DNA from: a phage
Reading direction: 5' to 3' (one strand)
Length of the DNA: 64,000 bases
Assembly (NCBI GenBank): GCA_019566135.1
Contig: GCA_019566135.1_3044.1
The position numbers were made by a program, and so were the translations under genes. A model generated the notes under the pieces. The model was not told the DNA's origin, searched no databases, and saw only the letters and a list, made by a program, of their open reading frames with translations. Shown here in pieces: positions 1 through 54,814 of this stretch. Every line of letters starts with the position of its first letter. The first letter of the stretch is position 1.

Positions 1-524
<524 letters not shown>

Positions 525-551
525 AATAAAATGGGCCTTGCGGCCCACTCC

Positions 552-1781: not shown

Positions 1782-4046
1782 TCATAATTTACAGGATGAA
1801 CAATCTTCAGCTTTTGGAGTTTCTATTTCATAATCATCAGTACCAGAACCATCACGGGTATTATGATAATAGAAATTTTTTCCGCCAAAATACCAAAAAT
1901 ACAAAAGGTCATCAATCATTATTGACATTGGAACCTTTCCTTTTGGAAAAATCTGTGGGTCATAATATGTATTCGCCGAAGCTGATTGACAAACCCATTT
2001 CAGCATAATAGCTACCTGCGTAAGATAAGGTTTATTACCTTTCTTAGCTAATTTCCATGTATAATCATAGAGGTCTATGTTATGCTCAATATTGGGCACG
2101 ACTTGATTAAAGGAGCCCTCTTTTGATTCTTTAACAGAGACTGGTCCACGTGGAGGCTCGATACCGTTTGTACTGTTAGAAACTTGGGAAGATGACTCAC
2201 ATGGCATAAGTGCTGATAATGTGCTATTACGGATGCCAAAGAGCTTAAGGTCTTCCCGCAGCGACGACCAGTCACAAACGTATTTTGGAGCTGCGATTTG
2301 GTCAATCTTTTTATTGTACCAGTCGATAGGTAATTCGCCTCGAGACCAACGAGTGTCTGAATAATATTCGCAAGGTCCTTTTTCTTTGGCGAGCTTAATG
2401 GATGCTTTAATGAGTCCATACTGTAATCTCTCAAATAGTTCATGTGTTAAATCGTTAGCATCTTCATAAGAAGCAAAGTTACTTGCCAGCCAAGCTGCAT
2501 AGTTAGTAACACCTACACCGAGGTTACGACGCTTTTTAGCTTTTTCTGCTTCAGGAACTGGATATCCTTGGTAATCCAAAAGATTATCAAGAGCACGAAC
2601 TTGGACTTCTGCCAATTCATTAATTTTATCTTGGTCTTGCCAGTCAAAATTATCCAGTACGAATGCAGAGAGAGTACACAATCCAATTTCAGCATCAGGA
2701 CTATTCACATCATTTGTTGGAATAGCAATTTCACAGCACAAGTTACTCTGACGAATAGGTGCCTTTTCACGAATAAACGGAGTATAGTTATTCGTATTAT
2801 CAATGAACTGCACATAAATCCTTGCTGTTCCTGAACGTTCAGTCATGAGCAATTCAAATAGTTCACGGGCTTTAATACGCTTTTTACGAATATTAGGGTC
2901 TTTTTCTGCTGCTTCGTATAATTCACGGAAACGGTCTTGGTCTTTAAAATAAGAATAATACAGCTCTCCACCCATTTCATGTGGACTGAACAAAGTAATG
3001 TAATCGTTCTTTCCGAATCGTTCCATCATCAAATCATTCAGCTGAACGCCATAATCCATATGACGAATGCGGTTTTCTTCTACGCCTTTGTTATTTTTCA
3101 AAACGAGAAGATTTTCAACTTCCAAATGCCAAATAGGATAATAAGCAGTAGCAGCGCCGCCACGAATTCCACCCTGTGAGCATGATTTAACAGCAGTCTG
3201 AAAATGTTTCCAAAAAGGAATAACACCAGTATGGCGTACTTCACCCATGCCAATCTTAGAACCTTCGGCACGAATCATACCAACGTTAATACCAATTCCA
3301 GCACGTTTGGAGATATATTCAACAATTGAAGCGGAAGCCTTATTGATAGACTTTAATGAATCACCTGCCTCAATAACAACGCATGAACTAAACTGTCGAG
3401 TCGGAGTACGGCAACCAGCCATAATAGGAGTTGGCAATGAAATCTGTCGAGTAGATACTGCTTCATAAAAACGAATAACGTGTTTTAATCTATCAACAGG
3501 TTCATCTTGATGCAATGCCATTCCAATAGTCATAAATGCAAACTGTGGAGTTTCATAAATTTGACCGGTGGTTTTATCTTTAACTAGATATTTTTCTTTT
3601 AATTGCATCGCCCCGGAATAAGTAAATTCCATATCCCGCTCGTGCTTAATTTTTGATTCTAAAAATGTAATTTCTTCTGCTGAATATTTTGACAATAATT
3701 CAGGGTCGTATTTACCTTCATTTACGCAATAAGAAATATGGTCAATAAATGAACGTGGTTCATATTGTCCGTAAACATGCTTACGAAGAGCGAACATTAA
3801 ACAACGTGCAGCTACATATTGATAATCAGGCTCTTCAACCGAAATAGAATTCGCAGCAGCCTTAATGACAATAGTCTGAATATCATCAGTTGTCATTCCA
3901 TCACGGAGATAAGATTTAATATTTTCATATAATTCATAAGGATCTACTGATGTTCCTTCAGCTGCCCAAGATAAAACTTTAATAATTTTTTGTGGGTCAA
4001 AGCTCTGAGAAACACCACTACTTTTGATAACATTAATTAATTGCAT
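1782..4046 (-). CDS. nrdA: Ribonucleotide reductase large subunit
   Basis: 754 aa, same length as T4 NrdA; class I RNR motifs; C-terminal CSSCKL. Confidence 0.93.
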   Translation of the reverse strand: MQLINVIKSSGVSQSFDPQKIIKVLSWAAEGTSVDPYELYENIKSYLRDGMTTDDIQTIVIKAAANSISVEEPDYQYVAARCLMFALRKHVYGQYEPRSFIDHISYCVNEGKYDPELLSKYSAEEITFLESKIKHERDMEFTYSGAMQLKEKYLVKDKTTGQIYETPQFAFMTIGMALHQDEPVDRLKHVIRFYEAVSTRQISLPTPIMAGCRTPTRQFSSCVVIEAGDSLKSINKASASIVEYISKRAGIGINVGMIRAEGSKIGMGEVRHTGVIPFWKHFQTAVKSCSQGGIRGGAATAYYPIWHLEVENLLVLKNNKGVEENRIRHMDYGVQLNDLMMERFGKNDYITLFSPHEMGGELYYSYFKDQDRFRELYEAAEKDPNIRKKRIKARELFELLMTERSGTARIYVQFIDNTNNYTPFIREKAPIRQSNLCCEIAIPTNDVNSPDAEIGLCTLSAFVLDNFDWQDQDKINELAEVQVRALDNLLDYQGYPVPEAEKAKKRRNLGVGVTNYAAWLASNFASYEDANDLTHELFERLQYGLIKASIKLAKEKGPCEYYSDTRWSRGELPIDWYNKKIDQIAAPKYVCDWSSLREDLKLFGIRNSTLSALMPCESSSQVSNSTNGIEPPRGPVSVKESKEGSFNQVVPNIEHNIDLYDYTWKLAKKGNKPYLTQVAIMLKWVCQSASANTYYDPQIFPKGKVPMSIMIDDLLYFWYFGGKNFYYHNTRDGSGTDDYEIETPKAEDCSSCKL

Positions 4047-4363
4047 AAGTCCTCAACTTGAAAATCGTCTTTAAACAATCGGTTAACTATATGAGCTATT
4101 ATATCACCATGACACGGCTTTGGTTTACATGTGCATCCTAGCCTCATTCCACGTAAAGGCTCTAAATGTGCTTTAGTTATTTCTCCGGATTTAATTCGAC
4201 GTATAAAATCTTTTTTGAATAATTCAATGGCAGCCTCCCGGCTGCCAGCATCTTTACCGACGTAATTTCCCCAAAATGTACCACGGTGAATATTAACATC
4301 AAAGTCGGATTTATATTTATTCACTACCCGGCATAGACGGCCCGCGCGGTTGTAGGTGTTCAT
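4037..4363 (-). CDS. Hypothetical protein, DUF4326-like (nrdA.1 position)
   Basis: 108 aa; WGNY...[12 protein letters not shown] pattern resembles the DUF4326 family; overlaps neighbours. Confidence 0.55.
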
Positions 4364-4592
4364 ATTGTTCTTCCGTTAAAACAGTAATATCGTAGTAACA
4401 GTCAGAAGAAGTTTTAACTGTGGAAATTTTATTATCAAAATACTCACGAGTCATTTTATGAGTATAGTATTTTTTACCATAAATGGTAATAGGCTGTTCT
4501 GGTCCTGGAACTTCTAACTCGCTTGGGTTAGGAAGTGTAAAAAGAACAACGCCAGAAGTATCTTTAAATCGTAAAATCATACATCCTCGCAA
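4317..4592 (-). CDS. Hypothetical protein (nrdA.2 position)
   Basis: 91-aa ORF between td and nrdA; start uncertain. Confidence 0.45.
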
Positions 4593-4600
4593 TAATAAAA

Positions 4601-5461
4601 TTACACCGCCATTTTTCCTTTAATTGGCAGATGAGATACATAGTTGTTAAGAACAAAATTATGAGGCTTTGCAAATTGACTCAACCAAAATACCTGCGAT
4701 TCTGTGTCCCATTCATCAAATTCATCTGGAAATTTTAATTGTAATTCGCATAAATCCATAGGTTCACGACGTAAAATTTCTTTACATTGTTCTACGTGAT
4801 TCATATAGATATGAGTATTACCACCAGAAAATATCAAATCTCCAGGAATAAGATTACACATTTTAGCTACAATATGAACTAACGTAGCATATGATGCAAT
4901 ATTAAATGGAAGACCGAGGAAAACATCTACCGAACGTTGATACCACTGCAAATCTAAATAGCCATTACGCACATTAAACTGATAGAACATATGACAAGGC
5001 GGTAATGCCATATATTTAAGTTCAGCTGGATTCCACGCAGAAACAATTTGACGCCTATCATTTGGCAGTTTTTTAATACGATCAATAACTTTTATAATTT
5101 GATCTACACCGCCAAAATCACGCCACTGTTTTCCATAAATTGGACCAAGTTCACCGCTATGGTATCCTAAATCTTTTGCTTGATTTTCGTAATTTTCATC
5201 CCAGACTGTTTTGCCTTGAATTAATGAATCATGTTGAATTAATCGCAAATCATTGACATTTGTGCTTCCTGATAAAAACCATATTAGCTCAGCAATGCAT
5301 GCATTCCAGGCGAGCTTCTTAGTTGTTACTGCAGGAAAACCTTTGGTTAAATCCCAACGCAATTTAGTACCGAACAAAGCAATTGTTCCTGTGCCCGTTC
5401 GGTCATCGGTTTCATAGCCATTTTCAAAAATGTCTTTAATTAAATCTTGGTATTGTTTCAT
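4601..5461 (-). CDS. td: Thymidylate synthase, uninterrupted (no group I intron, no I-TevI)
   Basis: 286 aa; [17 protein letters not shown]... matches T4 Td as remembered; one contiguous frame. Confidence 0.95.
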
Positions 5462-46709: not shown

Positions 46710-47051
46710 TCAATCACAAGATGTAGATGAACAACTAGAATCACAAGAACTTCCACATGAATCGCCCGTCCATACATGAACAGGAACATTGGTGTCATAT
46801 GAATCAGAACTAGACTGTGTATTCTGTGCATTAGATGATGTAGTAGGTACTGACCAGCGCCAAGGATTTTTATAATATTCTTGGGCTTCTTCATAAGTCA
46901 TAGTAACTGCTTCTACTGTTCCATCTCCCATATAAACATACTCAACTACAGTTAAAGGAAGGTAGTCATTTGAAATAGGAACTACACCTTCTCCCGGAGT
47001 TGTAGAGAAAAAATCTGTAAAGAAATTTTTAAACCAATTAAATATAAACAT
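46710..47051 (-). CDS. Hypothetical protein with hydrophobic N-terminus and Cys/Ser-rich C-terminal tail (113 aa)
   Basis: C-terminus ...[20 protein letters not shown]; N-terminus [15 protein letters not shown]. Confidence 0.5.
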
Positions 47052-47257
47052 TACAAAAAGCCTCTTTTGAATTCGACTTGCTTATCGCCATAATCATATC
47101 GAATCTCTGCATTAAATTCGACAGAACCATCTGCGTACATCATAAATGAATGCACAACAACTTCTGTGGACCATGGCTGCAGTTCATATTTCTTCATTAC
47201 ATGCCGTGAAATGATAATATCTAAATCTTCATTTGGTTTAATCCAACGATTTAACAT
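47051..47257 (-). CDS. Hypothetical protein (68 aa)
   Basis: GAGGAG SD; first gene after the early promoter at 47284-47313. Confidence 0.5.
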   Translation of the reverse strand: MLNRWIKPNEDLDIIISRHVMKKYELQPWSTEVVVHSFMMYADGSVEFNAEIRYDYGDKQVEFKRGFL

Positions 47258-47283
47258 AGTGCTCTCCTCTATAAGATAGTTCT

Positions 47284-47313
47284 ATTATACCACACTCATT
47301 TTGATATGTAAAC
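47284..47313 (-). promoter_or_regulatory. Early promoter (-35 GTTTAC 47313..47308, extended -10 TGtgGTATAAT)
   Basis: Near-consensus TATAAT with 18-nt spacer. Confidence 0.65.
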
Positions 47314-47320
47314 TGCAAAA

Positions 47321-47349
47321 ACGAAAAAAGGAACCCCGAAGGATTCCTT
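47321..47349 (-). terminator. Rho-independent terminator after soc
   Basis: AAGGAAUCC-UUCG-GGGUUCCUU followed by a U-tract. Confidence 0.7.
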
Positions 47350-47354
47350 AAATT

Positions 47355-47612
47355 TTAACCACCAATACCTGGAGTTGGCGTAACAGTCCAAAGACCTTCA
47401 TTAGCAGTGATCCATTCAGTACGCTGATTTTCTTCATATACTGTAGAATATGCTGCTTTTTCAGAAGGGAATGTCTGATAATGAGCACCAGAAATTTTGT
47501 GAACATCAGAATAAAGAGGGAAAGCTACAGAAATTTCTTTACCCTGAATTGTACCACCATCAACTGCTTGGTCAAATGTTTTAATATTAACATAACCGCG
47601 AGTACTAGCCAT
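47355..47612 (-). CDS. soc: Small outer capsid protein Soc
   Basis: 85 aa; MASTRGYVNIKTF...EISVAFPLYSDVHKISGAHYQTFPSEKAAYSTVYEENQRTEW matches T4 Soc. Confidence 0.9.
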   Translation of the reverse strand: MASTRGYVNIKTFDQAVDGGTIQGKEISVAFPLYSDVHKISGAHYQTFPSEKAAYSTVYEENQRTEWITANEGLWTVTPTPGIGG

Positions 47613-47628
47613 GTAATTCTCCTTTTAT

Positions 47629-47838
47629 TTAAATTACATGATTATTTATAATAAATTCTCGCGGAACGTTAAAATATCCGATTTTAGTTAATATAACAAC
47701 ATCACCGTTAATAATTACCGGAGAATAATCTTCTGGAGTGTTAAATTTCCAATGGGATCTAATATTATATCCATCAGAACCAAATGCTCGAGTAGCCGGT
47801 CTCCCGGCTTTTTGCCACGCGTAGAAATCAAATTTCAT
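47629..47838 (-). CDS. Hypothetical protein (69 aa; soc.1 position)
   Basis: ORF. Confidence 0.5.
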   Translation of the reverse strand: MKFDFYAWQKAGRPATRAFGSDGYNIRSHWKFNTPEDYSPVIINGDVVILTKIGYFNVPREFIINNHVI

Positions 47839-48029
47839 TTTGAATGCTCTATAATTAATTTTAAAGCTTCTTCACTGACAAAAATTTCGTCAGGACCTTC
47901 TATAACTTCAACCATACGAAGTTGATTAGTTAAGAGCTCACATACGAGCTCCTTGTTATAATCTTTAAATAGCTGGTCAATACGTTTCTTATGGGCTTTC
48001 TTAAGCTGACGCTTATTTAAACGAGCCAT
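47835..48029 (-). CDS. Hypothetical protein (64 aa; soc.2 position)
   Basis: ORF. Confidence 0.5.
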   Translation of the reverse strand: MARLNKRQLKKAHKKRIDQLFKDYNKELVCELLTNQLRMVEVIEGPDEIFVSEEALKLIIEHSK

Positions 48030-48547
48030 TAATAACCTCGGTCTTGACGAGCGAAGTTTTCAGCATTTTTCAGGTAATAAAGTTTAAAGATTTCTTCAGC
48101 CGACATTCCAAGAGCAATAAATTTATTCATGAAAAAGTGAAATTGGTCAATCAGTTCAAATTTAATTTCAAGCTGATCTTCAGGAGATAAGTCTTGAATT
48201 TTCTTGGATTGCATTTCAGAATAACGTTTCTTCCAAGGTTTCCATACAGCAGAAGCTTCTTTTTCACCATTACTCATACCACCAAGAGAAGTATATAGCT
48301 CGCGAGTTTCGTCTGCGATATAATCGTCTTGGTTTCGCAGCCAAGCAAGAACTTCTCCTGCAGTTTCAAGTGAATCAGGATGACGATTTGTTTCTGGTTT
48401 ATCATTAGCCAAACGAATCTGTAAATGCCGCTGCATGTCAAGCATAACCTGCAATGGGTCAATACTGTGCATAATATACTCAGCATATGCACGATTTGCT
48501 TTATCAACACCTTCGATCAAATGAGCACATTCATTAAAGTGAGCCAT
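48029..48547 (-). CDS. 56: dCTPase/dUTPase gp56 (MazG-like), 172 aa from ATG 48547
   Basis: MAHFNECAHLIEGVDKANRAYAEY...; AAAGGA SD; track's longer ORF is an upstream read-through. Confidence 0.85.
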   Translation of the reverse strand: MAHFNECAHLIEGVDKANRAYAEYIMHSIDPLQVMLDMQRHLQIRLANDKPETNRHPDSLETAGEVLAWLRNQDDYIADETRELYTSLGGMSNGEKEASAVWKPWKKRYSEMQSKKIQDLSPEDQLEIKFELIDQFHFFMNKFIALGMSAEEIFKLYYLKNAENFARQDRGY

Positions 48548-48618
48548 TATTTTTCCTTTCAATTCATGGGTTAGTAGATTAATTATACAATAAATATATA
48601 AAGCAATAAGGAGGACAT

Positions 48619-48819
48619 ATGGTACAAAAATTAATGGCACTTGTTAATGCCATAAAAGGTAATAAAAAACGTATAGCTTTTACTATTTCTGCTATGGTAG
48701 GAATTTTACTCTGGAACTTTATTTTATCACCAATTGCAATTGCGCATGGTGTTAATATTCCAGTAGTTACTCTTGATACATTTGTAGATTTAGCATTTGC
48801 TTTAGTTGGGTTGATTTAA
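48619..48819 (+). CDS. Small membrane protein on the opposite strand (66 aa)
   Basis: Strong SD AAGGAGG 5 nt before ATG 48619; two hydrophobic segments; converges on gene 61, overlapping its stop by 4 nt. Confidence 0.55.
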   Translation: MVQKLMALVNAIKGNKKRIAFTISAMVGILLWNFILSPIAIAHGVNIPVVTLDTFVDLAFALVGLI

Positions 48820-49844
48820 ATCTTAGCATATTTAGATAGCCGCATTTTAGCCATCAACCCCTGGGCAATATTATTTTTCATATATTCCATAATTTGTTCA
48901 GGGGTTGCACCTTCCTTTCTAATCATATCATTAACATCTTTAGATTTCCAGGGAGATTTATCCCAAAACATAATCCTTTCTCCTGCATCAACTAATTTAG
49001 TCATTCGTTTGATAGTGTCAGGGTGACGAGGTTCATTATCTAAAACCCACACTCGTCTATCTTTAAATGGAACAACTTCTAGGTCTAATTGACCACCCGT
49101 AATAGCTATACCATTTTCAATAAAAAGTGAATCTATAGGTCCTTCTAGAACATATACATCACCATCTTTAACTCGTTCAACACCGTAAATTTTTGTTGCC
49201 TCAGGATAAGCTTTAATGGTGATATATTTTTGAGGAGCATCTTTCTTTAATGCACGTCCTTGAAAAGACTCAGCTTTTCCATTAGCATTATAAATTGGAA
49301 TAACAAGACGAGGCTCAGAAATTTCCTTTTTGTATGTTCCCGGTGCTATACTATTAACTAATTTAGGCCATTCGGTTGTAAACCAAAGATATTTCCATTT
49401 ATCCTTTGGAATACAACGAGCTTTTACATATTTTATAATTGGATGGTCTTCCGCCAGTTTATCTAATCTAACACATGACGGAAGAGATTTAATTATTTTC
49501 TTCTCAGGTTGCTTAGGAAGTTCTTTAGGTTTTTCTACTGGACGACTTTTACCTTTTTCTTTTCTTATTTCAAAGATATACTCACGATATAAATCAGGTT
49601 CAAACTCCTTTAAATATATTCCGATTGGTGCATGATAATTACAGTTATAACAATGAATATTTCCTTCATTATTATCACCATAATACCATCCACGAGCTTT
49701 ATTCTGGTCGGTTTTTGAATCTCCACAAACTGGACATCTAAACCGCAATTTAAAAGTTGAACTATTATTTACTTGTGTGAATTTAGGTAAATGAGCTAAT
49801 GCACGGTATGCAAACTCATTATCAATCCAAGGTATTGATGACAT
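48816..49844 (-). CDS. 61: DNA primase gp61
   Basis: 342 aa (same as T4 gp61); N-terminal zinc ribbon CPVCGDS...CYNC. Confidence 0.93.
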   Translation of the reverse strand: MSSIPWIDNEFAYRALAHLPKFTQVNNSSTFKLRFRCPVCGDSKTDQNKARGWYYGDNNEGNIHCYNCNYHAPIGIYLKEFEPDLYREYIFEIRKEKGKSRPVEKPKELPKQPEKKIIKSLPSCVRLDKLAEDHPIIKYVKARCIPKDKWKYLWFTTEWPKLVNSIAPGTYKKEISEPRLVIPIYNANGKAESFQGRALKKDAPQKYITIKAYPEATKIYGVERVKDGDVYVLEGPIDSLFIENGIAITGGQLDLEVVPFKDRRVWVLDNEPRHPDTIKRMTKLVDAGERIMFWDKSPWKSKDVNDMIRKEGATPEQIMEYMKNNIAQGLMAKMRLSKYAKI

Positions 49845-49846
49845 TT

Positions 49847-50011
49847 TTACTCTTCTTTTTCTTTAGATTCCTCTTTTTTCTTTTTAGGAATCTGCTCAGG
49901 ACCTTTATTTACTACAGCGCCTGACGTTGTTCCAGTAGAGATATTTTCAGGATTACCACCTGAATCTCCAGCGACCATATCTTCTTTAATAAATTCTTTA
50001 TATGTTTTCAT
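49847..50011 (-). CDS. Small hydrophilic ORF (54 aa, MKTYKEFIKEDMVAGDSGGNPENISTGTT...)
   Basis: GAGG SD; its start lies inside junction repeat copy A. Confidence 0.4.
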   Translation of the reverse strand: MKTYKEFIKEDMVAGDSGGNPENISTGTTSGAVVNKGPEQIPKKKKEESKEKEE

Positions 50012-50057
50012 ATTAACCTCTATTCATAAAAGCATTAAAAATTTGGTCATCAATAGA
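50009..50057 (-). repeat. 49-bp gene-junction direct repeat, copy A
   Basis: 46 of 49 nt identical to 50367-50415; covers last 12 codons, stop, SD and ATG. Confidence 0.8.
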
Positions 50058-50369
50058 TGGCGCAGTAATATTTTCTGCATCATTTAGTAAATCATTAATT
50101 TCATCAGATAGCATAACACATGTACCTTTATTTCCTGTAATTGTTACTGCACAATTACGAACGTTTTCTTTATCAAATTTTAGGTTAATATTTTCGTAGT
50201 GAAAATCCTTTAATGCCGAATATATCTTTAAAATGAAATTGTCTTTTACTACAATAAACCCAACCTCACTATTAAAACGCGGTTCATGGAAACTGTAATA
50301 AACCTTTTCATCTATAAAATCGTATGAAATTTTTTCCATTTTTAAATATGAAAATTCAGAACTATACAT
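50013..50369 (-). CDS. Hypothetical protein (118 aa), truncated paralog of the next ORF
   Basis: Shares FIVVKDN motif and C-terminal SIDDQIFNAFMN(R/K)G with 50371..51003. Confidence 0.55.
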   Translation of the reverse strand: MYSSEFSYLKMEKISYDFIDEKVYYSFHEPRFNSEVGFIVVKDNFILKIYSALKDFHYENINLKFDKENVRNCAVTITGNKGTCVMLSDEINDLLNDAENITAPSIDDQIFNAFMNRG

Positions 50370-50415
50370 ATTAACCTTTATTCATAAAAGCATTAAAAAT
50401 TTGATCGTCAATAGA
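50367..50415 (-). repeat. 49-bp gene-junction direct repeat, copy B
   Basis: See copy A. Confidence 0.8.
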
Positions 50416-51003
50416 AACTTTTACTTTAGGCTGTTCTTCAAACGGTAATTCATATCCACATATTACAATTTTGTGATCGATACCAAAATACACAGAAGCA
50501 ATATTATTAATATTATTTTCAGTGAAATCTAAATCAACATCAATATCTTTTTGACTAACGCTCAAAGGATAATTAATACGAATAATTCGATTATCTTTAA
50601 CAAAGATTCCACCGACATACTCTGTGCTGCGTTTAAAGTTTACACGTTTCCTAAATGAAAAATATTCAGGTTCTTTATGGGCTCGACTCATAGGGCTTAA
50701 AGTGTATTCCGAATATGAAATATCAAATCCTACACCTTCAATATGAGCCAAAGTGTCATGATTAAACCAATTATAATCGTATGCCAAATCCATTAAATTG
50801 TAATATGTGAAAGGCACCGGATTAACATCATATGTTGTACCTTTAAAATCTGCCCAGGCAACGATTTCGTTATCTTTAACAATTACAAAAATTGTGCCAA
50901 TAAGATATCCACGGTTATTTTCATCAGGCGTTATATTATAACATTGTGCATCAGGAAATTTACCGTATTTAAACGGTGGATTTTTGTGCATATAATAAAT
51001 CAT
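50371..51003 (-). CDS. Gene 61.2-position protein (210 aa); possibly the anti-DarT factor AdfA family
   Basis: Position between 61 and sp; internal repeats of an IFVKDN-like motif; AdfA assignment is from memory of the literature. Confidence 0.45.
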   Translation of the reverse strand: MIYYMHKNPPFKYGKFPDAQCYNITPDENNRGYLIGTIFVIVKDNEIVAWADFKGTTYDVNPVPFTYYNLMDLAYDYNWFNHDTLAHIEGVGFDISYSEYTLSPMSRAHKEPEYFSFRKRVNFKRSTEYVGGIFVKDNRIIRINYPLSVSQKDIDVDLDFTENNINNIASVYFGIDHKIVICGYELPFEEQPKVKVSIDDQIFNAFMNKG

Positions 51004-51004
51004 A

Positions 51005-51298
51005 TTATTCGCCTGTGATTTCGGTTACGATATTTTTGTTATTAAAGTTTTTATCGCAATACAGAACATAATTATACTGCATTACACCACCAGACTTAAG
51101 TTGTTTTTGCACTTCAGCTTTCATTTCAGGACGATCGCGCTCAACGATATTCATAATATCCGCTTCAATTTGAGTTTCAACTTCAGTCTGATCTGCAGTC
51201 ATAGACCATTCACACAAATCTTTATCATATCCTGCCATAGCAGGCTGAGTAGCACAAGAAGCCAAAGTAAAAATTGTAGCAAAAATAAATTTTTTCAT
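51005..51298 (-). CDS. sp: Spackle periplasmic protein
   Basis: 97 aa with signal peptide MKKFIFATIFTLASCATQPAMA; size and position as T4 sp. Confidence 0.75.
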   Translation of the reverse strand: MKKFIFATIFTLASCATQPAMAGYDKDLCEWSMTADQTEVETQIEADIMNIVERDRPEMKAEVQKQLKSGGVMQYNYVLYCDKNFNNKNIVTEITGE

Positions 51299-51358
51299 GA
51301 TAATCTCCTCAGTAGTTTATGTTTATATAGTATCTCAATTTCCAACAAAAGTAAACAG

Positions 51359-51616
51359 CTATTTTAAAACTTCTGCGTAATCACATGTTACAAACTGTTT
51401 CTCTAGCTTAACGATTTTACGAAAATACCTTTTATACTGACGAATCTGCCTCTTCGTAGGACGTACAGCAAACTTAATAAATTCCACTCGACCAAATGGA
51501 GGACTTTCTTCTGCTGGAATATCTAACACCAATTCCCACGTATCCGCAATAAGTGCTTTGAATTGCGTATTTTTCCTGACGTTATACGGAGTAGGTTTAA
51601 ATAAAACAATATGCAT
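51359..51616 (-). CDS. Gene 61.4-position protein (85 aa); possibly TifA (toxIN inhibitor)
   Basis: ATG 51616 with GAGGA SD inside the dmd 3' end; basic C-terminus. Confidence 0.45.
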   Translation of the reverse strand: MHIVLFKPTPYNVRKNTQFKALIADTWELVLDIPAEESPPFGRVEFIKFAVRPTKRQIRQYKRYFRKIVKLEKQFVTCDYAEVLK

Positions 51617-51617
51617 A

Positions 51618-51800
51618 TTATCCTCGGCAATCCACTTCGCACACTTTCTTGTCATCAATGAAAGCTTTAACTAATGCTTTATTAACTTCAGCATATTGAG
51701 TAGTAGCCCATTGAACGTCATCTTTCATCATTGTGATTTCTTTAGTAAACATGCTTTCATTCTTAAACCACCCCATAAAAACTACTTTTACCAATTCCAT
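51618..51800 (-). CDS. dmd: Dmd (discriminator of mRNA degradation; antitoxin against RnlA/LsoA)
   Basis: 60 aa as T4 Dmd; directly downstream of gene 41. Confidence 0.75.
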   Translation of the reverse strand: MELVKVVFMGWFKNESMFTKEITMMKDDVQWATTQYAEVNKALVKAFIDDKKVCEVDCRG

Positions 51801-51858
51801 AACAATCTCCTCATTTAACCAACAAGACTACTATACCATAGTCTTGTCAGCTTGTAAA

Positions 51859-53286
51859 CTAAAATTTTAATTCATTTGCCAAAGCATCTAACTGAGCTCG
51901 AGCTGATTCGTTTCTTTGATAGCGATTCTGTTCAGCCTGAATCTGTTGTGAACCTGCTACTTCACTCACTTCGGTTGGAGTAGAATCTTGTTCAATTTCT
52001 ACCCATTTTTGATTTCCTTTTTGAACACCCATCAAAAACTTATTCCACTTATTCTTATCACCATATCGTGATTTGATTTGCTTAATAAGTTGTTGTTCAG
52101 CAGCTGCTAGCTCCTCAGTTTCAATGACCGCAAGCATAAAATCAGCTGTTGCTGGAAGACCAGCAGATTCTGCAATATCGCTCATGTTAACATCGGAAGA
52201 GTCCCAAGCTTGTTTACCGACCTGTGCTGCAGTCCAAAGAACAGTTTCGGTTTCAACAGCCAGAGCACGCAATTCCTCTGCGATAGCTTTAACAGTTGTG
52301 TAACTATTTTCTGAATAAACTCGGATGCGACAAGATTTACAAATACCCAGATAGTCGACAATAATGATTGTTGGAACAAAATTCTTTTTGAGCTTCAATT
52401 CATTCAAGAGAGACCTGAATGTGTTAGCGTCTGCTCCACCAGTAGGATATTGCTTAACGATTAAACGACCAAGGGTAGATTTCTCACGCCATTTTTCCAT
52501 TTTTCCTTTATATTCAGCGTAAGAAATATGCCCATCATCAATGTCATCAAGAGAAACATCAAGCATGTTAGCGTCAATACGCTTAGCACAGACTTCTTCT
52601 GCCATTTCCATGGAAATGTAAAGAACATTATGACCGAGCTGCAAATAATCTGCCGCTAATGAACACAATCCTAATGATTTACCAACGTTAACGCCAGCCA
52701 TTAAAACGTTCAGTGTTCCAGTCTCAGCTCCGCCTTTAGTAATTTTGTTTAGAATTCTGAGTTTAAATGGAACCTTACGAGCTTTATTCATATAAGATAG
52801 CCAACGCGCTTCATAGTCATCCATCCAATCATGACCAACGTAGCTATCAAATGAAATTGATAATGCTTGGCGCATGATGTCAGGAATAGCACCTACATCT
52901 GGCATTTTCTTATTTCGTTTTTCCGGAGGAAGCTCAGCATTAGTTTGAATTTCGATTATTTTAGACGTAGCATTAAACATCGCCCTTTGCTGAACATATT
53001 TTTCTGTTTCTTTTACTAACCAGCTGTGGTCTTCTGGAGAATCAGCCAGTTTTGAAATAAGTGTTTTTACACCAGAATATTCTGTTTCAGTAAATGAACT
53101 ATTTTCTAATGCAACATTTAACGCATTAATAGATGGAACGCTATGATACTCATTAACATGAGATTTAATTAATTTGAACGTATTTTTAGCTGGACCACTT
53201 TCAAAATATTCTGAATCCATATATGGCCAAACTTTTGAAAAATAAGCTTGATCAAATATAAGATGAGAAAGAATAATTTCTACCAC
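51859..53286 (-). CDS. 41: Replicative DNA helicase gp41
   Basis: 475 aa (same as T4 gp41); DnaB-like Walker motifs. Confidence 0.93.
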   Translation of the reverse strand: MVEIILSHLIFDQAYFSKVWPYMDSEYFESGPAKNTFKLIKSHVNEYHSVPSINALNVALENSSFTETEYSGVKTLISKLADSPEDHSWLVKETEKYVQQRAMFNATSKIIEIQTNAELPPEKRNKKMPDVGAIPDIMRQALSISFDSYVGHDWMDDYEARWLSYMNKARKVPFKLRILNKITKGGAETGTLNVLMAGVNVGKSLGLCSLAADYLQLGHNVLYISMEMAEEVCAKRIDANMLDVSLDDIDDGHISYAEYKGKMEKWREKSTLGRLIVKQYPTGGADANTFRSLLNELKLKKNFVPTIIIVDYLGICKSCRIRVYSENSYTTVKAIAEELRALAVETETVLWTAAQVGKQAWDSSDVNMSDIAESAGLPATADFMLAVIETEELAAAEQQLIKQIKSRYGDKNKWNKFLMGVQKGNQKWVEIEQDSTPTEVSEVAGSQQIQAEQNRYQRNESARAQLDALANELKF

Positions 53287-53295
53287 ACTTACTCC

Positions 53296-53658
53296 TTAAA
53301 AGAATTTAAACTTTTTCTTTGATCTTTTATTAAATGCATCTTGTAGTTGCATTGTAATACATTTTTCTACATGAGGAGCTAACTCAGCTTTTCTTTCTTG
53401 GTCAAGAACAGCAAAGTCCATTACGACTTTTCCATCAACCCAATCTAATTTTGTCACATACACAATGTGTGTAGAACCATCTTCTAGTTTAATGACAATC
53501 TCCTGGATAACATTTTCCATGGCAGATTTAATTATCTTAAGAGATTCATTAAAAAGACGTTCTTTTCTTTCTTCTTCCCCCTCCGAAGAGGGGGATTCAT
53601 CGATAATTTCTAGATCTAAATCTAAATCATCTTTATTCATTAAATTCTTCCATATCAC
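53296..53658 (-). CDS. 40: gp40 (head assembly accessory protein)
   Basis: 120 aa; position between uvsX and 41. Confidence 0.75.
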   Translation of the reverse strand: MIWKNLMNKDDLDLDLEIIDESPSSEGEEERKERLFNESLKIIKSAMENVIQEIVIKLEDGSTHIVYVTKLDWVDGKVVMDFAVLDQERKAELAPHVEKCITMQLQDAFNKRSKKKFKFF

Positions 53659-54814
53659 TTAGCTGATCTAGGTCAGTTTCTAAATCAGCAGCTGATTTAC
53701 TTTTACTTTCTGGAGATTTAAATTTTTCAACTTTTGAGTTAATTAATTCATCAACTTCCGCTTCAACAATTTCATTACTATCAATAGCACCTAACTGATA
53801 AGCACGCTTAATAGCATCACGGAATGGTTGATGCTTAAATAAAGGACCCCAGAATGTAGTGCAGTTGGTATCTTTTGCACGCCAAGATTTTTCTTCGCGA
53901 ATCATCTCGCCGGTTTCTTCATCAAGAAATTCACGAGCATACCAACCATTTTTAGGTTTTACCACGAATCCTAATTCTAGAGCCATATCTAACAATCCAG
54001 AATAAGGATCGATACCGCCGTCAAATTTAACATCAATAAAGAATTTACTTTTTTCTTTAACGGTACGAGATTTTTCTACATTTAGAACAAATTGATACCC
54101 TTGAAGATCAGAACCATCTTTAATCTGACGTTTACCGATAATGAATACGGTATCAGCCGAATACATTACGCCTGTACCACCTGTCATCACGGTTTTACTA
54201 AACATTTCAATTGTTTCAATTGTATGGTTAACCGCAACGCATGGAATATTTTTAATGCTAAAATAAGGAGTAACAATACGGAATAATGACTTCAGTGATT
54301 TAGCACGAGTCATATCTGCCACAGATTTTTCATTCAAGGCATCTTCCGTTTCTTTCTTAGAAGCCATATTACCAATTGAGTCGATGAATACAATAACCTT
54401 TTCACCGCGCTCAATAGCTTCAAGCTGGTTCACCATATCAATTTTCAGCTGTTCAACTGACTGGATTGGCGTATGAATTACTCGTTCCGGGTCAACTCCC
54501 ATGGATCGCAAATAAGCTGGAGTAATACCAAATTCGCTATCATAGAATAGACAAACCGCGTCAGGATATTTGTTCAAATACGCCGCAACCATAGTCAAAG
54601 ACATATTTGATTTAAAGTGTTTAGAAGGACCTGCAAAAATGGTTAAACCAGACTGCATACCACCATCAATCGCACCAGAAATAGCGATATTAAGCATTGG
54701 GATTTTTGTACGGATTACATCCTTTTCATTAAAGAATTTAGATGTAGTCAGTTCAGCAGTCATTTTAGAAGTGGAAGCTTTAATCAAACGGGATTTTAAA
54801 TCTGCAATAGACAT
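53633..54814 (-). CDS. uvsX: Recombinase UvsX (RecA-like)
   Basis: 393 aa; Walker A GPSKHFKS; close match to T4 UvsX as remembered. Confidence 0.93.
   Translation of the reverse strand: MSIADLKSRLIKASTSKMTAELTTSKFFNEKDVIRTKIPMLNIAISGAIDGGMQSGLTIFAGPSKHFKSNMSLTMVAAYLNKYPDAVCLFYDSEFGITPAYLRSMGVDPERVIHTPIQSVEQLKIDMVNQLEAIERGEKVIVFIDSIGNMASKKETEDALNEKSVADMTRAKSLKSLFRIVTPYFSIKNIPCVAVNHTIETIEMFSKTVMTGGTGVMYSADTVFIIGKRQIKDGSDLQGYQFVLNVEKSRTVKEKSKFFIDVKFDGGIDPYSGLLDMALELGFVVKPKNGWYAREFLDEETGEMIREEKSWRAKDTNCTTFWGPLFKHQPFRDAIKRAYQLGAIDSNEIVEAEVDELINSKVEKFKSPESKSKSAADLETDLDQLSDMEEFNE

What the first reader, a model, noticed from the sequence alone, without database searches (positions are those of the whole stretch)
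49847..51800. Anti-defence island between gene 61 and gene 41
In transcription order after gene 41 the window has dmd (RnlA/LsoA antitoxin mimic), an 85-aa ORF at the 61.4 position (TifA-like), spackle, a 210-aa ORF at the 61.2 position (AdfA-like), its truncated paralog and a further 54-aa ORF. The tifA and adfA assignments are from my memory of the literature on these positions, not from sequence identity.
Basis: partly seen in the sequence, partly recalled or inferred. Interest (0 to 1): 0.5.

Follow-up and report, generated by a model that had tools for sequence, protein, structure and literature searches.

The report
T-even phage anti-toxin gene island

Summary
Window 49847-51800 (minus strand) holds six tightly packed genes between helicase gene 41 and primase gene 61 of a Tequatrovirus 99.8% identical to phage teqdroes. 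They are:
- dmd, 100% identical to T4.
- tifA/61.4, 98% identical to T4.
- spackle, 93% identical to T4.
- adfA/61.2, a full-length Pfam AdfA match, 83% identical to RB69 AdfA and 73% to T4 gp61.2.
- A 118-aa half-size AdfA paralog.
- gp61.1, 96% identical to T4.

The TifA and AdfA assignments, made from memory, are correct. The "anti-TA island" idea was published in 2022 (eLife e79549), so the finding is already known.

Details that go beyond it:
1. This AdfA has Asn at the residue that decides DarT1 neutralisation (RB69 position 164; His is active, Arg inactive).
2. The 118-aa gene is the AdfA C-terminal module. It stands alone in T2 at the 61.2 position, although T2 is described in the literature as lacking adfA. 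A 49-nt repeat at the 3' ends of the two paralogs links the T4, T2 and two-gene arrangements.
3. gp61.1 is homologous to residues 58-94 of the major capsid protein gp23, across its maturation cleavage site. I found no paper on this.

Spackle is a superinfection-exclusion protein, not an anti-defence protein.

The parts
51830..51858 (-). Early-promoter-like site upstream of dmd (TTTACA, 17 nt, TATAGT with an upstream TG).
   Evidence: Consensus scan gives 10 of 12 matches. The 41-dmd intergenic DNA is 99% identical to T4 and T2. The eLife paper states that dmd-tifA is driven by an early T4 promoter upstream of dmd.
51618..51800 (-). dmd (gene 61.5), a 60-aa direct inhibitor of the RnlA/LsoA toxins.
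   Evidence: 100% identical to T4 Dmd. Pfam PF17587 scores 156.9 bits and PHROG 2102 also matches. It is the only gene of this island scored 'Fit' in the T4 CRISPRi-ART screen.
51359..51616 (-). tifA (gene 61.4), an 85-aa ToxN inhibitor and RNA-binding protein.
   Evidence: 83/85 identical to T4 gp61.4, differing by C61Y and I83V. Pfam DUF7279 scores 72 bits. It keeps P53, T54, K55, R56 and R59, and the T4-type F41.
51321..51357 (-). Conserved promoter-like intergenic element between tifA and sp (GTTTACT, 17 nt, TACTAT).
   Evidence: Read from the sequence. It is 98% identical to T4 and T2. It scores below the scan threshold, so promoter function is inferred, not shown.
51005..51298 (-). sp (spackle, gene 61.3), a 97-aa periplasmic inhibitor of the gp5 tail lysozyme that gives superinfection exclusion.
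   Evidence: 93% identical to T4 Sp. Pfam PF25676 scores 151.2 bits. Mechanism is from PMC7677548 and PMC7650644.
50371..51003 (-). adfA (gene 61.2), a 210-aa anti-DarT factor A with Asn167 at the RB69 position-164 column.
   Evidence: Pfam PF23813 scores 461.7 bits over 1-210. It is 83% identical to RB69 and 73% to T4.
50013..50369 (-). Half-size AdfA paralog of 118 aa (PHROG 4122): the AdfA C-terminal module plus the shared DDQIFNAFMNRG tail.
   Evidence: Homology is shown. The AlphaFold model has pLDDT 84.5. It occurs in 338 phage records and is the only gene at this position in T2.
50367..50415 (.). Copy 2 of a 49-nt direct repeat: the 3' end of adfA, its stop codon and the next start (TAATATG).
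   Evidence: 94% identical to copy 1.
50009..50057 (.). Copy 1 of the 49-nt direct repeat: the 3' end of the 118-aa gene, its stop codon and the start of 61.1.
   Evidence: Found. Over the 60 nt compared it is identical to the tail of T4 adfA except for one downstream base.
49847..50011 (-). Gene 61.1, 54 aa. It has a segment homologous to gp23 residues 58-94 followed by a Lys/Glu-rich tail, and lies 2 nt upstream of the gene 61 start codon.
   Evidence: 96% identical to T4 gp61.1. Homology to gp23 is shown. tblastn finds it in 1397 phage records. It is 'Not Fit' in the T4 CRISPRi-ART screen.

Best explanation
The region is the accessory-gene island that T-even phages carry between the replicative helicase gene 41 and the primase gene 61. 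Srikant et al. 2022 proposed it as an 'anti-TA island'.

It reads as two early units. The first is an early promoter driving dmd-tifA. The second is a conserved promoter-like site followed by sp, adfA, the short AdfA paralog, 61.1 and 61. Four of the five gene junctions are TAATATG and the fifth is TAAAAATG, which suggests translational coupling.

The products are small stoichiometric binders rather than enzymes:
- Dmd binds and blocks the RnlA/LsoA RNase toxins.
- TifA binds the ToxN endoribonuclease together with RNA, through its basic C-terminal helix.
- AdfA binds a DarT ADP-ribosyltransferase toxin.
- Spackle is exported and blocks the gp5 lysozyme of superinfecting phages.

Orthology and preservation of the known functional residues are shown here. 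Activity of these particular alleles is inferred. Specifically:
- This TifA should behave like the weak T4/T2/T6 type (F41).
- This AdfA carries Asn at the specificity residue, so it probably targets a DarT variant other than the tested DarT1, or binds that DarT1 poorly.
- The 118-aa paralog is most likely a stand-alone version of the AdfA toxin-binding module with its own specificity.
- gp61.1 has no assigned function.
For: - Identity to characterised T4 proteins is 100% for Dmd, 98% for TifA, 93% for Sp, 73% for AdfA and 96% for gp61.1. AdfA is 83% identical to RB69 AdfA.
- Pfam gives Dmd, DUF7279, T4_Spackle and AdfA, all above their cut-offs.
- Synteny matches T4, T2, RB69, VR25 and CC31.
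- Literature supports tifA = 61.4, adfA = 61.2 and the 'anti-TA island', the TifA mechanism and residues, AdfA residue 164 and DarT binding by two-hybrid, and Spackle-gp5.
- The promoter regions are 98-99% identical to T4.
- The 118-aa paralog has a confident fold. The 164-equivalent residue lies in the matching predicted helix in both paralogs, and it varies between Asn and His in the short family too.
Against: - No function was tested here.
- In T4, deleting adfA has no phenotype on DarTG1, even without adfN. T2 lacking adfN becomes DarTG1-sensitive although it carries the 118-aa paralog. So neither paralog is known to matter against that system at native levels.
- adfN (gene 30.3), the main anti-DarTG1 factor, lies outside the window.
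- In the T4 CRISPRi-ART screen only dmd of this island affects fitness in a laboratory host.
- Spackle is not an anti-defence gene.
- gp61.1 is nearly universal in enterobacterial, Acinetobacter and Aeromonas T4-like phages, which is unlike a typical patchy anti-defence gene.
Confidence: 0.9

Rival explanations
1. The region is not a dedicated anti-defence island. It is a generic hyperplastic slot between conserved replication genes, where any small early accessory gene can lodge. On this view the anti-toxin genes are only part of a mixed cargo that also includes superinfection exclusion and unrelated functions.
For: - sp is a superinfection-exclusion gene.
- RB69 carries imm and imm.1, which are also superinfection immunity genes, in the same interval, plus four unrelated small ORFs.
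- VR25 and CC31 have different sets of hypothetical genes there.
- gp61.1 is quasi-core.
Against: Three of the six genes are orthologues of experimentally shown toxin inhibitors against three different toxin-antitoxin systems. That is more than a random sample of T4 early genes would give. The two readings overlap rather than exclude each other.
Confidence: 0.35
2. The 118-aa ORF is a decaying remnant of a tandem adfA duplication with no function of its own.
For: It lacks the first ~110 residues of the AdfA profile. T4 lacks it altogether. T2, which has only this gene, is DarTG1-sensitive once adfN is removed.
Against: - It occurs in 338 phage records, 337 of them near full length, mostly at 95-100% identity.
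- The reading frame and length (118-120 aa) are kept down to about 45% identity in other genera.
- The predicted fold is compact and confident (pLDDT 84.5, pTM 0.73).
- It is retained as the sole family member in T2-type phages.
Confidence: 0.1
3. gp61.1 is an early-expressed mimic of the N-terminal arm and maturation site of the major capsid protein gp23. It would act as a decoy or competitor for a factor that recognises that segment, such as a capsid-sensing defence, the EF-Tu/Lit axis or the gp21 prohead protease.
For: - BLASTP of gp61.1 residues 2-38 against gp23 residues 57-93 gives 43% identity, E 1e-8.
- The gp61.1 family profile finds only T4 gp23 among 177,635 PDB sequences, at residues 58-94, E 1e-5.
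- The reverse search works too: the gp23 N-terminus hits PHROG 1823 at 3e-10.
- The Glu aligned with the gp23 cleavage site (E65|A66) is invariant in the gp61.1 family, and the residue two positions before it is hydrophobic in all 16 aligned sequences, Phe in RB69 and Ile, Leu, Val or Met in the rest.
- The gene is dispensable in the laboratory yet conserved in 1397 records.
- It sits inside a known anti-toxin island.
Against: - No experiment or paper supports it.
- Near-universal conservation and fixed synteny with the primase gene suit a housekeeping or regulatory role better than an anti-defence one.
- Longer homologues of 92-154 aa carry an unrelated N-terminal domain.
- The Gol peptide that triggers Lit lies, by my recollection, just downstream of the homologous segment. 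I could not verify this.
Confidence: 0.12

Closest known systems
The T4 dmd-tifA-sp-adfA-61.1 locus, the 'anti-TA island' of Srikant, Guegler and Laub, eLife 2022
   Same: The flanking genes, gene order, strand and promoter regions are the same. Dmd, TifA, Sp and gp61.1 are 93-100% identical.
   Different: The window has an extra 118-aa AdfA paralog between adfA and 61.1. Its AdfA is only 73% identical to T4 (the N-terminal third resembles RB69) and has Asn where T4 has His165.
RB69 AdfA, the anti-DarT factor A defined by the R164H escape mutation (LeRoux et al. 2022, as cited in PMC11257639)
   Same: 83% identity, a full-length Pfam AdfA match, and the same position after sp.
   Different: At residue 164, RB69 has Arg (CGT, inactive on DarT1), the active alleles have His (CAT), and the window has Asn (AAT). 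The three codons form a series of single-nucleotide steps. RB69 has no short paralog, and it has imm and imm.1 inserted in the island.
The T2 gene annotated 'gp61.2' (118 aa), also known as RB32ORF033c
   Same: It is 97.5% identical to the window's 118-aa protein and has the same downstream neighbour, 61.1.
   Different: In T2 it follows sp directly and no long adfA is present. The DarTG1 paper therefore treats T2 as naturally lacking adfA.
T4 major capsid protein gp23, N-terminal residues 58-94
   Same: gp61.1 shares 16 of 37 residues with this segment, including the Glu at the maturation cleavage site and the G-D...N-I...G-x-T-S-G-A-V...G-P motif.
   Different: gp61.1 has none of the HK97-fold body. 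It ends in a Lys/Glu-rich tail, lies in an early gene cluster, and is dispensable in the laboratory.

Membership tests
Dmd (Pfam PF17587) | Sequence membership and identity to T4 Dmd. | tested here: met
   156.9 bits against a cut-off of 27. 60/60 identical to T4 Dmd.
Dmd (Pfam PF17587) | Direct binding and inhibition of the RnlA/LsoA toxins. | not testable with these tools
   Inferred from 100% identity. Function as cited.
TifA (T4 gp61.4; Pfam DUF7279) | Sequence orthology to the characterised T4 protein and a position directly after dmd. | tested here: met
   83/85 identical. DUF7279 scores 72 bits against a cut-off of 24.5. The dmd stop and tifA start form TAATATG.
TifA (T4 gp61.4; Pfam DUF7279) | The Pro-Thr helix cap and the basic residues K55, R56 and R59 needed for RNA binding. 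| tested here: met
   RPTKRQIRQ is invariant in the alignment. The requirement is from PMC10853763.
TifA (T4 gp61.4; Pfam DUF7279) | Ser or His at residue 41, the naturally stronger ToxN-inhibiting alleles. | tested here: not met
   The window has F41, as T4 does. This predicts the weaker T4-type activity. It does not affect family membership.
AdfA (Pfam PF23813), the 210-aa protein | A full-length match to the family profile and synteny after sp. | tested here: met
   461.7 bits, residues 1-210 on profile positions 1-211. Synteny is shown.
AdfA (Pfam PF23813), the 210-aa protein | His at RB69 position 164, required to bind and neutralise the tested DarT1. | tested here: not met
   The window has Asn167 (codon AAT). 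T4 has His165 and RB69 has Arg164.
AdfA (Pfam PF23813), the 210-aa protein | Physical binding to a DarT toxin. | not testable with these tools
   Needs a two-hybrid or pull-down experiment.
AdfA (Pfam PF23813), the 118-aa protein | A profile match above the gathering score. | tested here: met
   31.9 bits against a cut-off of 27, covering only profile positions 113-211. hhalign against the AdfA C-half gives 97.8% probability, E 1e-12.
AdfA (Pfam PF23813), the 118-aa protein | The full two-part architecture, with N-terminal half and C-terminal half. | tested here: not met
   Its first 16 or so residues align weakly to AdfA residues ~65-80, and AdfA residues 1-64 and ~81-109 are absent. It is a domain-level relative, not a full member.
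AdfA (Pfam PF23813), the 118-aa protein | Neutralisation of DarT1. | tested here: inconclusive
   The evidence is indirect and from the literature. T2 carries only this paralog and becomes DarTG1-sensitive when adfN is deleted. T4 with a His-allele AdfA behaves the same way, so the test does not discriminate.
Spackle (Pfam PF25676) | Sequence membership and an N-terminal export signal. | tested here: met
   151.2 bits. 93% identical to T4 Sp. The hydrophobic N-terminus MKKFIFATIFTLASCATQPAMA is seen in the sequence.
Anti-defence island (clustered counter-defence genes) | Two or more adjacent genes with experimentally shown counter-defence orthologues, and variable content between relatives. 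| tested here: met
   dmd, tifA and adfA. Content differs among T4, T2, RB69, VR25 and CC31.
Anti-defence island (clustered counter-defence genes) | All members act against host defences. | tested here: not met
   sp acts against superinfecting phage. 61.1 and the 118-aa gene have no known role.
gp23-type major capsid protein (for gp61.1) | Significant similarity to gp23. | tested here: met
   The similarity covers only residues 58-94 of gp23.
gp23-type major capsid protein (for gp61.1) | The HK97-fold capsid body. | tested here: not met
   gp61.1 is 54 aa and nothing aligns beyond gp23 residue 94. The database label 'major capsid domain-containing protein' overstates the relationship.

The most novel reading that the evidence does not exclude
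gp61.1 (49847-50011) is a fourth counter-defence or host-manipulation factor of the island. It would be an early-made peptide that copies the gp23 segment spanning the prohead-protease cleavage site and the first ~30 residues of mature capsid protein. It would occupy, ahead of late gene expression, whatever host factor or immune sensor recognises that segment (a capsid-sensing defence, or the EF-Tu surface used by the Lit/Gol suicide system). A milder companion reading is that the 118-aa AdfA C-module is an independent toxin inhibitor with a specificity different from AdfA.
Probability: 0.12. Interest if true: 0.65.

Novelty: already known. Interest (0 to 1): 0.25.

Why it matters
As submitted, the finding re-identifies a published locus, so its main value is as a correct annotation. 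Three details could be useful to people working on phage counter-defence.

1. A third natural allele (Asn) exists at the single AdfA residue known to switch DarT1 neutralisation on and off. It is one nucleotide step from His.
2. The half-size AdfA paralog has been overlooked. T2 is described as lacking adfA, yet it carries this paralog. A 49-nt recombination joint links the T4, T2 and two-gene haplotypes. This gives a natural dissection of the AdfA toxin-binding module.
3. gp61.1 is a widely conserved, dispensable early peptide of unknown function. It turns out to be a copy of the capsid protein's maturation-site segment, which suggests cheap experiments.

Tried and rejected
- **Internal duplication of AdfA.** I tested whether the N-half and C-half are repeats. 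hhalign finds only an 11-residue VKDNxI motif at 11% probability. The predicted secondary structure looks repeated, but this is not supported by sequence, so I do not claim it.
- **Structural relatives.**
  - The AdfA model (pLDDT 69.6) has no PDB match with E below 0.1.
  - In the viral structure library only family members match, of 118, 145, 157 and 212 aa.
  - The afdb50 library was not available.
- **Wider homologues.** A profile search of 1.84 billion representative proteins gave only 10 hits, all phage-type or fragments. The family is confined to T4-like phages.
- **Other scans.** NCBIfam gave no hits for any of the five proteins submitted, which did not include Dmd or Spackle. Rfam gave no RNA family in 47000-54000. 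No intrinsic terminator was found. Pfam gave no hits for gp61.1 in either length form.
- **Papers not held.** The original AdfA paper (LeRoux 2022) and the Gol-peptide paper (Georgiou 1998) are not in the library. AdfA facts are therefore taken from later papers of the same groups, and the exact Gol coordinates in gp23 remain unverified.
- **adfN.** I looked for gene 30.3 in the window. It is absent, because the window starts at rnlA/denA.
- **Co-variation of gp61.1 with its own phage's gp23.** This was only begun, with CC31, and gave no discriminating result.
Full report
**What is there**

The window is a Tequatrovirus. The 2.2 kb around the finding match 665 phage records, best 99.8% to Escherichia phage teqdroes. 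All genes of interest lie on the minus strand. In order after helicase gene 41 (51859-53286) they are:
- dmd, 51618-51800.
- An 85-aa ORF, 51359-51616.
- sp, 51005-51298.
- A 210-aa ORF, 50371-51003.
- A 118-aa ORF, 50013-50369.
- A 54-aa ORF, 49847-50011.
- Primase gene 61, 48816-49844.

The mechanical ORF list extends the 85-aa ORF to 99 aa from a TTG inside dmd. The ATG start is the one used in T4. T4 has the same order without the 118-aa gene, and teqdroes is annotated with all six.

**Identities**

| Gene | Evidence |
|---|---|
| Dmd | 60/60 identical to T4 |
| 85-aa protein | 83/85 identical to T4 gp61.4, differing by C61Y and I83V; Pfam DUF7279 |
| Spackle | 93% identical to T4 |
| 210-aa protein | Pfam PF23813 'Anti-DarT factor A', 461.7 bits end to end; 73% identical to T4 gp61.2; 83% to RB69 gp61.2 |
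| 54-aa protein | 52/54 identical to T4 gp61.1 |

Gene 61.4 was renamed tifA and gene 61.2 is adfA.

**How the known members work**

These mechanisms come from the papers, not from tests here.
- Dmd directly inhibits RnlA, and LsoA.
- TifA binds ToxN and RNA. Its basic C-terminal helix, capped by Pro53-Thr54, and residues K55, R56 and R59 are needed for RNA binding. Residue 41 tunes potency: Phe in T4 is weak, Ser or His is stronger (PMC10853763).
- The window protein keeps P53, T54, K55, R56 and R59, and has F41. I therefore infer T4-type behaviour. In T4 this is enough against chromosomal toxIN but not against plasmid-borne toxIN.
- AdfA was found because RB69 escapes DarTG1 by an R164H change. 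AdfA(R164H), but not wild type, associates with DarT1 in a two-hybrid assay (PMC11257639).
- Spackle is a periplasmic inhibitor of the gp5 tail lysozyme and mediates superinfection exclusion (PMC7677548, PMC7650644). It does not counter a host defence, so 'anti-defence island' is too broad for it.

**The AdfA allele**

RB69 Arg164 corresponds to T4 His165 and to window Asn167. The codons are CGT, CAT and AAT, a chain of single-nucleotide steps. Of 14 long-form sequences aligned, 12 have His, one has Arg, and only the window sequence has Asn. The window's exact sequence is the cluster P0006, which stands for 94 member sequences, so the allele is not rare. Whether Asn permits binding to the tested DarT1 is unknown.

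Three points limit what can be said about AdfA in this phage:
- Deleting adfA in T4 has no phenotype on DarTG1, even in an adfN deletion background.
- AdfN (gp30.3) is the main anti-DarTG1 factor.
- Gene 30.3 is outside this window, which begins at rnlA/denA.

**The 118-aa paralog**

It matches the AdfA profile only over positions 113-211 (31.9 bits, cut-off 27). It aligns to the C-half of the 210-aa protein at 37% identity (E 6e-11). Profile-profile comparison with the AdfA C-half gives 97.8% probability.

Its AlphaFold model is confident (pLDDT 84.5, pTM 0.73): five beta-strands, a helix, a strand and two helices. The full AdfA model is weaker (pLDDT 69.6) but shows the same succession of elements in its C-half. 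The residue equivalent to position 164 is Asn72 in the short protein, and it lies in the corresponding predicted helix. One short-family cluster has His there, so the same site varies in both paralogs.

The fold has no solved relative. Among viral models it matches only family members of 118, 145, 157 and 212 aa. The whole family is tiny, with 10 hits in 1.84 billion representative proteins.

tblastn finds the short gene in 338 phage records, 337 of them near full length. It finds the long gene in 487 records at 80% coverage or more. About 158 records have the long-to-short junction seen here.

T2 has only the short gene after sp, where it is annotated 'gp61.2'. The DarTG1 paper nevertheless describes T2 as naturally lacking an adfA homologue. 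T2 without adfN is DarTG1-sensitive. So the short protein does not protect against that DarT1 at native level, but the same is true of T4's His-allele AdfA.

My reading, by inference, is that this is a stand-alone AdfA toxin-binding module with a different, unknown specificity. The pseudogene alternative is unlikely given its conservation, its retained length at about 45% identity in other genera and its confident fold.

**Haplotypes**

The two paralogs share a 49-nt direct repeat, 46 of 49 nt identical. It covers their last 13 codons, the stop codon and the next start codon. The rest of the two genes is only about 37% identical at the protein level.

Codon by codon, the tail of T4 adfA matches the tail of the window's short gene and of the T2 short gene, differing at only one downstream base in the 60 nt compared. 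The window's long gene differs at three bases within the repeat. The simplest account is that the T4 arrangement arose by recombination between the two repeats, which removed the short gene.

T2 keeps 12 nt, ttAGAGGTTAgt, between the sp stop and the short-gene start. These resemble the end of the long gene, although they could equally be just a ribosome-binding site. Four of the five gene junctions in the island are TAATATG and the fifth is TAAAAATG, consistent with translational coupling and with cassette exchange at these joints.

**gp61.1**

This 54-aa protein is much more widespread than its neighbours. It occurs in 1397 phage records, including Klebsiella, Acinetobacter and Aeromonas phages. 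It has an almost invariant core, EDMVAGDxGGNPxNIxxGTTxGAVVNKGPEQIP, followed by a basic tail.

It is homologous to the major capsid protein gp23:
- BLASTP aligns residues 2-38 with gp23 residues 57-93 (16/37 identical, E 1e-8).
- The family profile finds gp23 as the only significant hit among all PDB sequences (residues 58-94, E 1e-5).
- The gp23 N-terminus hits the gp61.1 PHROG families in return (3e-10 and 3e-8).

The aligned segment spans the prohead-protease site. The precursor reads LTE|AE, and the deposited mature chains begin four residues before the aligned GGDHG. In the gp61.1 family the aligned Glu is invariant. The residue two positions before it is hydrophobic in all 16 aligned sequences: Phe in RB69, and Ile, Leu, Val or Met in the other 15.

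Longer homologues (RB69 92 aa, CC31 154 aa, PHROG 2086) add an unrelated N-terminal domain. The T4-type protein is therefore the minimal C-terminal module. In a T4 genome-wide knock-down screen, 61.1, 61.2, sp and 61.4 were 'Not Fit' and only dmd was 'Fit' (PMC11879866 supplement).

I found no paper on gp61.1 function. Database names such as 'major capsid domain-containing protein' show that automated annotation has noticed the resemblance. A decoy or competitor role is a hypothesis only. Its near-universal presence and fixed position before the primase gene argue for some other role. I could not verify where the Lit-activating Gol peptide lies relative to this segment.

**Expression signals**

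The 41-dmd intergenic region carries an early-promoter-like site (TTTACA, 17 nt, TATAGT) and is 99% identical to T4 and T2. The tifA-sp spacer is 98% identical and contains GTTTACT, 17 nt, TACTAT. Promoter function of the second site is inferred. No terminator-like sites or Rfam matches were found.

**Verdict**

Interest is low. The modest additions are the Asn167 AdfA allele, the overlooked half-size paralog with its recombination joint, and the gp61.1-gp23 homology.

Noticed in passing
window 49847-50011: gp61.1 is homologous to residues 58-94 of the major capsid protein gp23, across the prohead-protease cleavage site. The Glu aligned with the cleavage site is invariant, and a hydrophobic residue sits two positions before it. 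The gene occurs in 1397 phage records yet is dispensable in a T4 knock-down screen.
   Followed up: partly
window 50009-50057 and 50367-50415: A 49-nt direct repeat (94% identical) lies at the 3' ends of adfA and its short paralog. The tail of T4 adfA matches the short gene's copy except for one downstream base, which suggests the T4 arrangement arose by deletion between the repeats.
   Followed up: yes
window 50503-50505 (codon 167 of adfA): The codon is AAT (Asn) at the position where RB69 has CGT (Arg, inactive on DarT1) and T4 has CAT (His, active). It is a third natural allele, one nucleotide step from His.
   Followed up: yes
window 48619-48819, plus strand: A 66-aa ORF on the opposite strand abuts the 3' end of gene 61. 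A gene is annotated at the equivalent position and strand in teqdroes, T2, RB69 (ORF029w) and VR25, so it is probably real. Its function is unknown.
   Followed up: no
L003 (RB69) 4012-4690: RB69 carries the superinfection-immunity genes imm and imm.1 inside the same 41-61 interval, between tifA and sp. Phage-versus-phage exclusion genes therefore co-locate with the anti-toxin genes.
   Followed up: no
L005 (VR25) 2059-2857 and L008 (CC31) 1667-2131: VR25 has two AdfA-C-module proteins in tandem (145 and 119 aa), both ending in DDQIFNAFMKR, and a tifA-like gene placed after them. CC31 has a 154-aa gp61.1 with an extra N-terminal domain that has no Pfam match.
   Followed up: partly
window 1-548: The window starts inside rnlA and denA (99-100% identical to T4). 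Gene 30.3 (adfN), the main anti-DarTG1 factor of T-even phages, therefore lies about 9 kb outside the window, and its state in this phage is unknown.
   Followed up: yes
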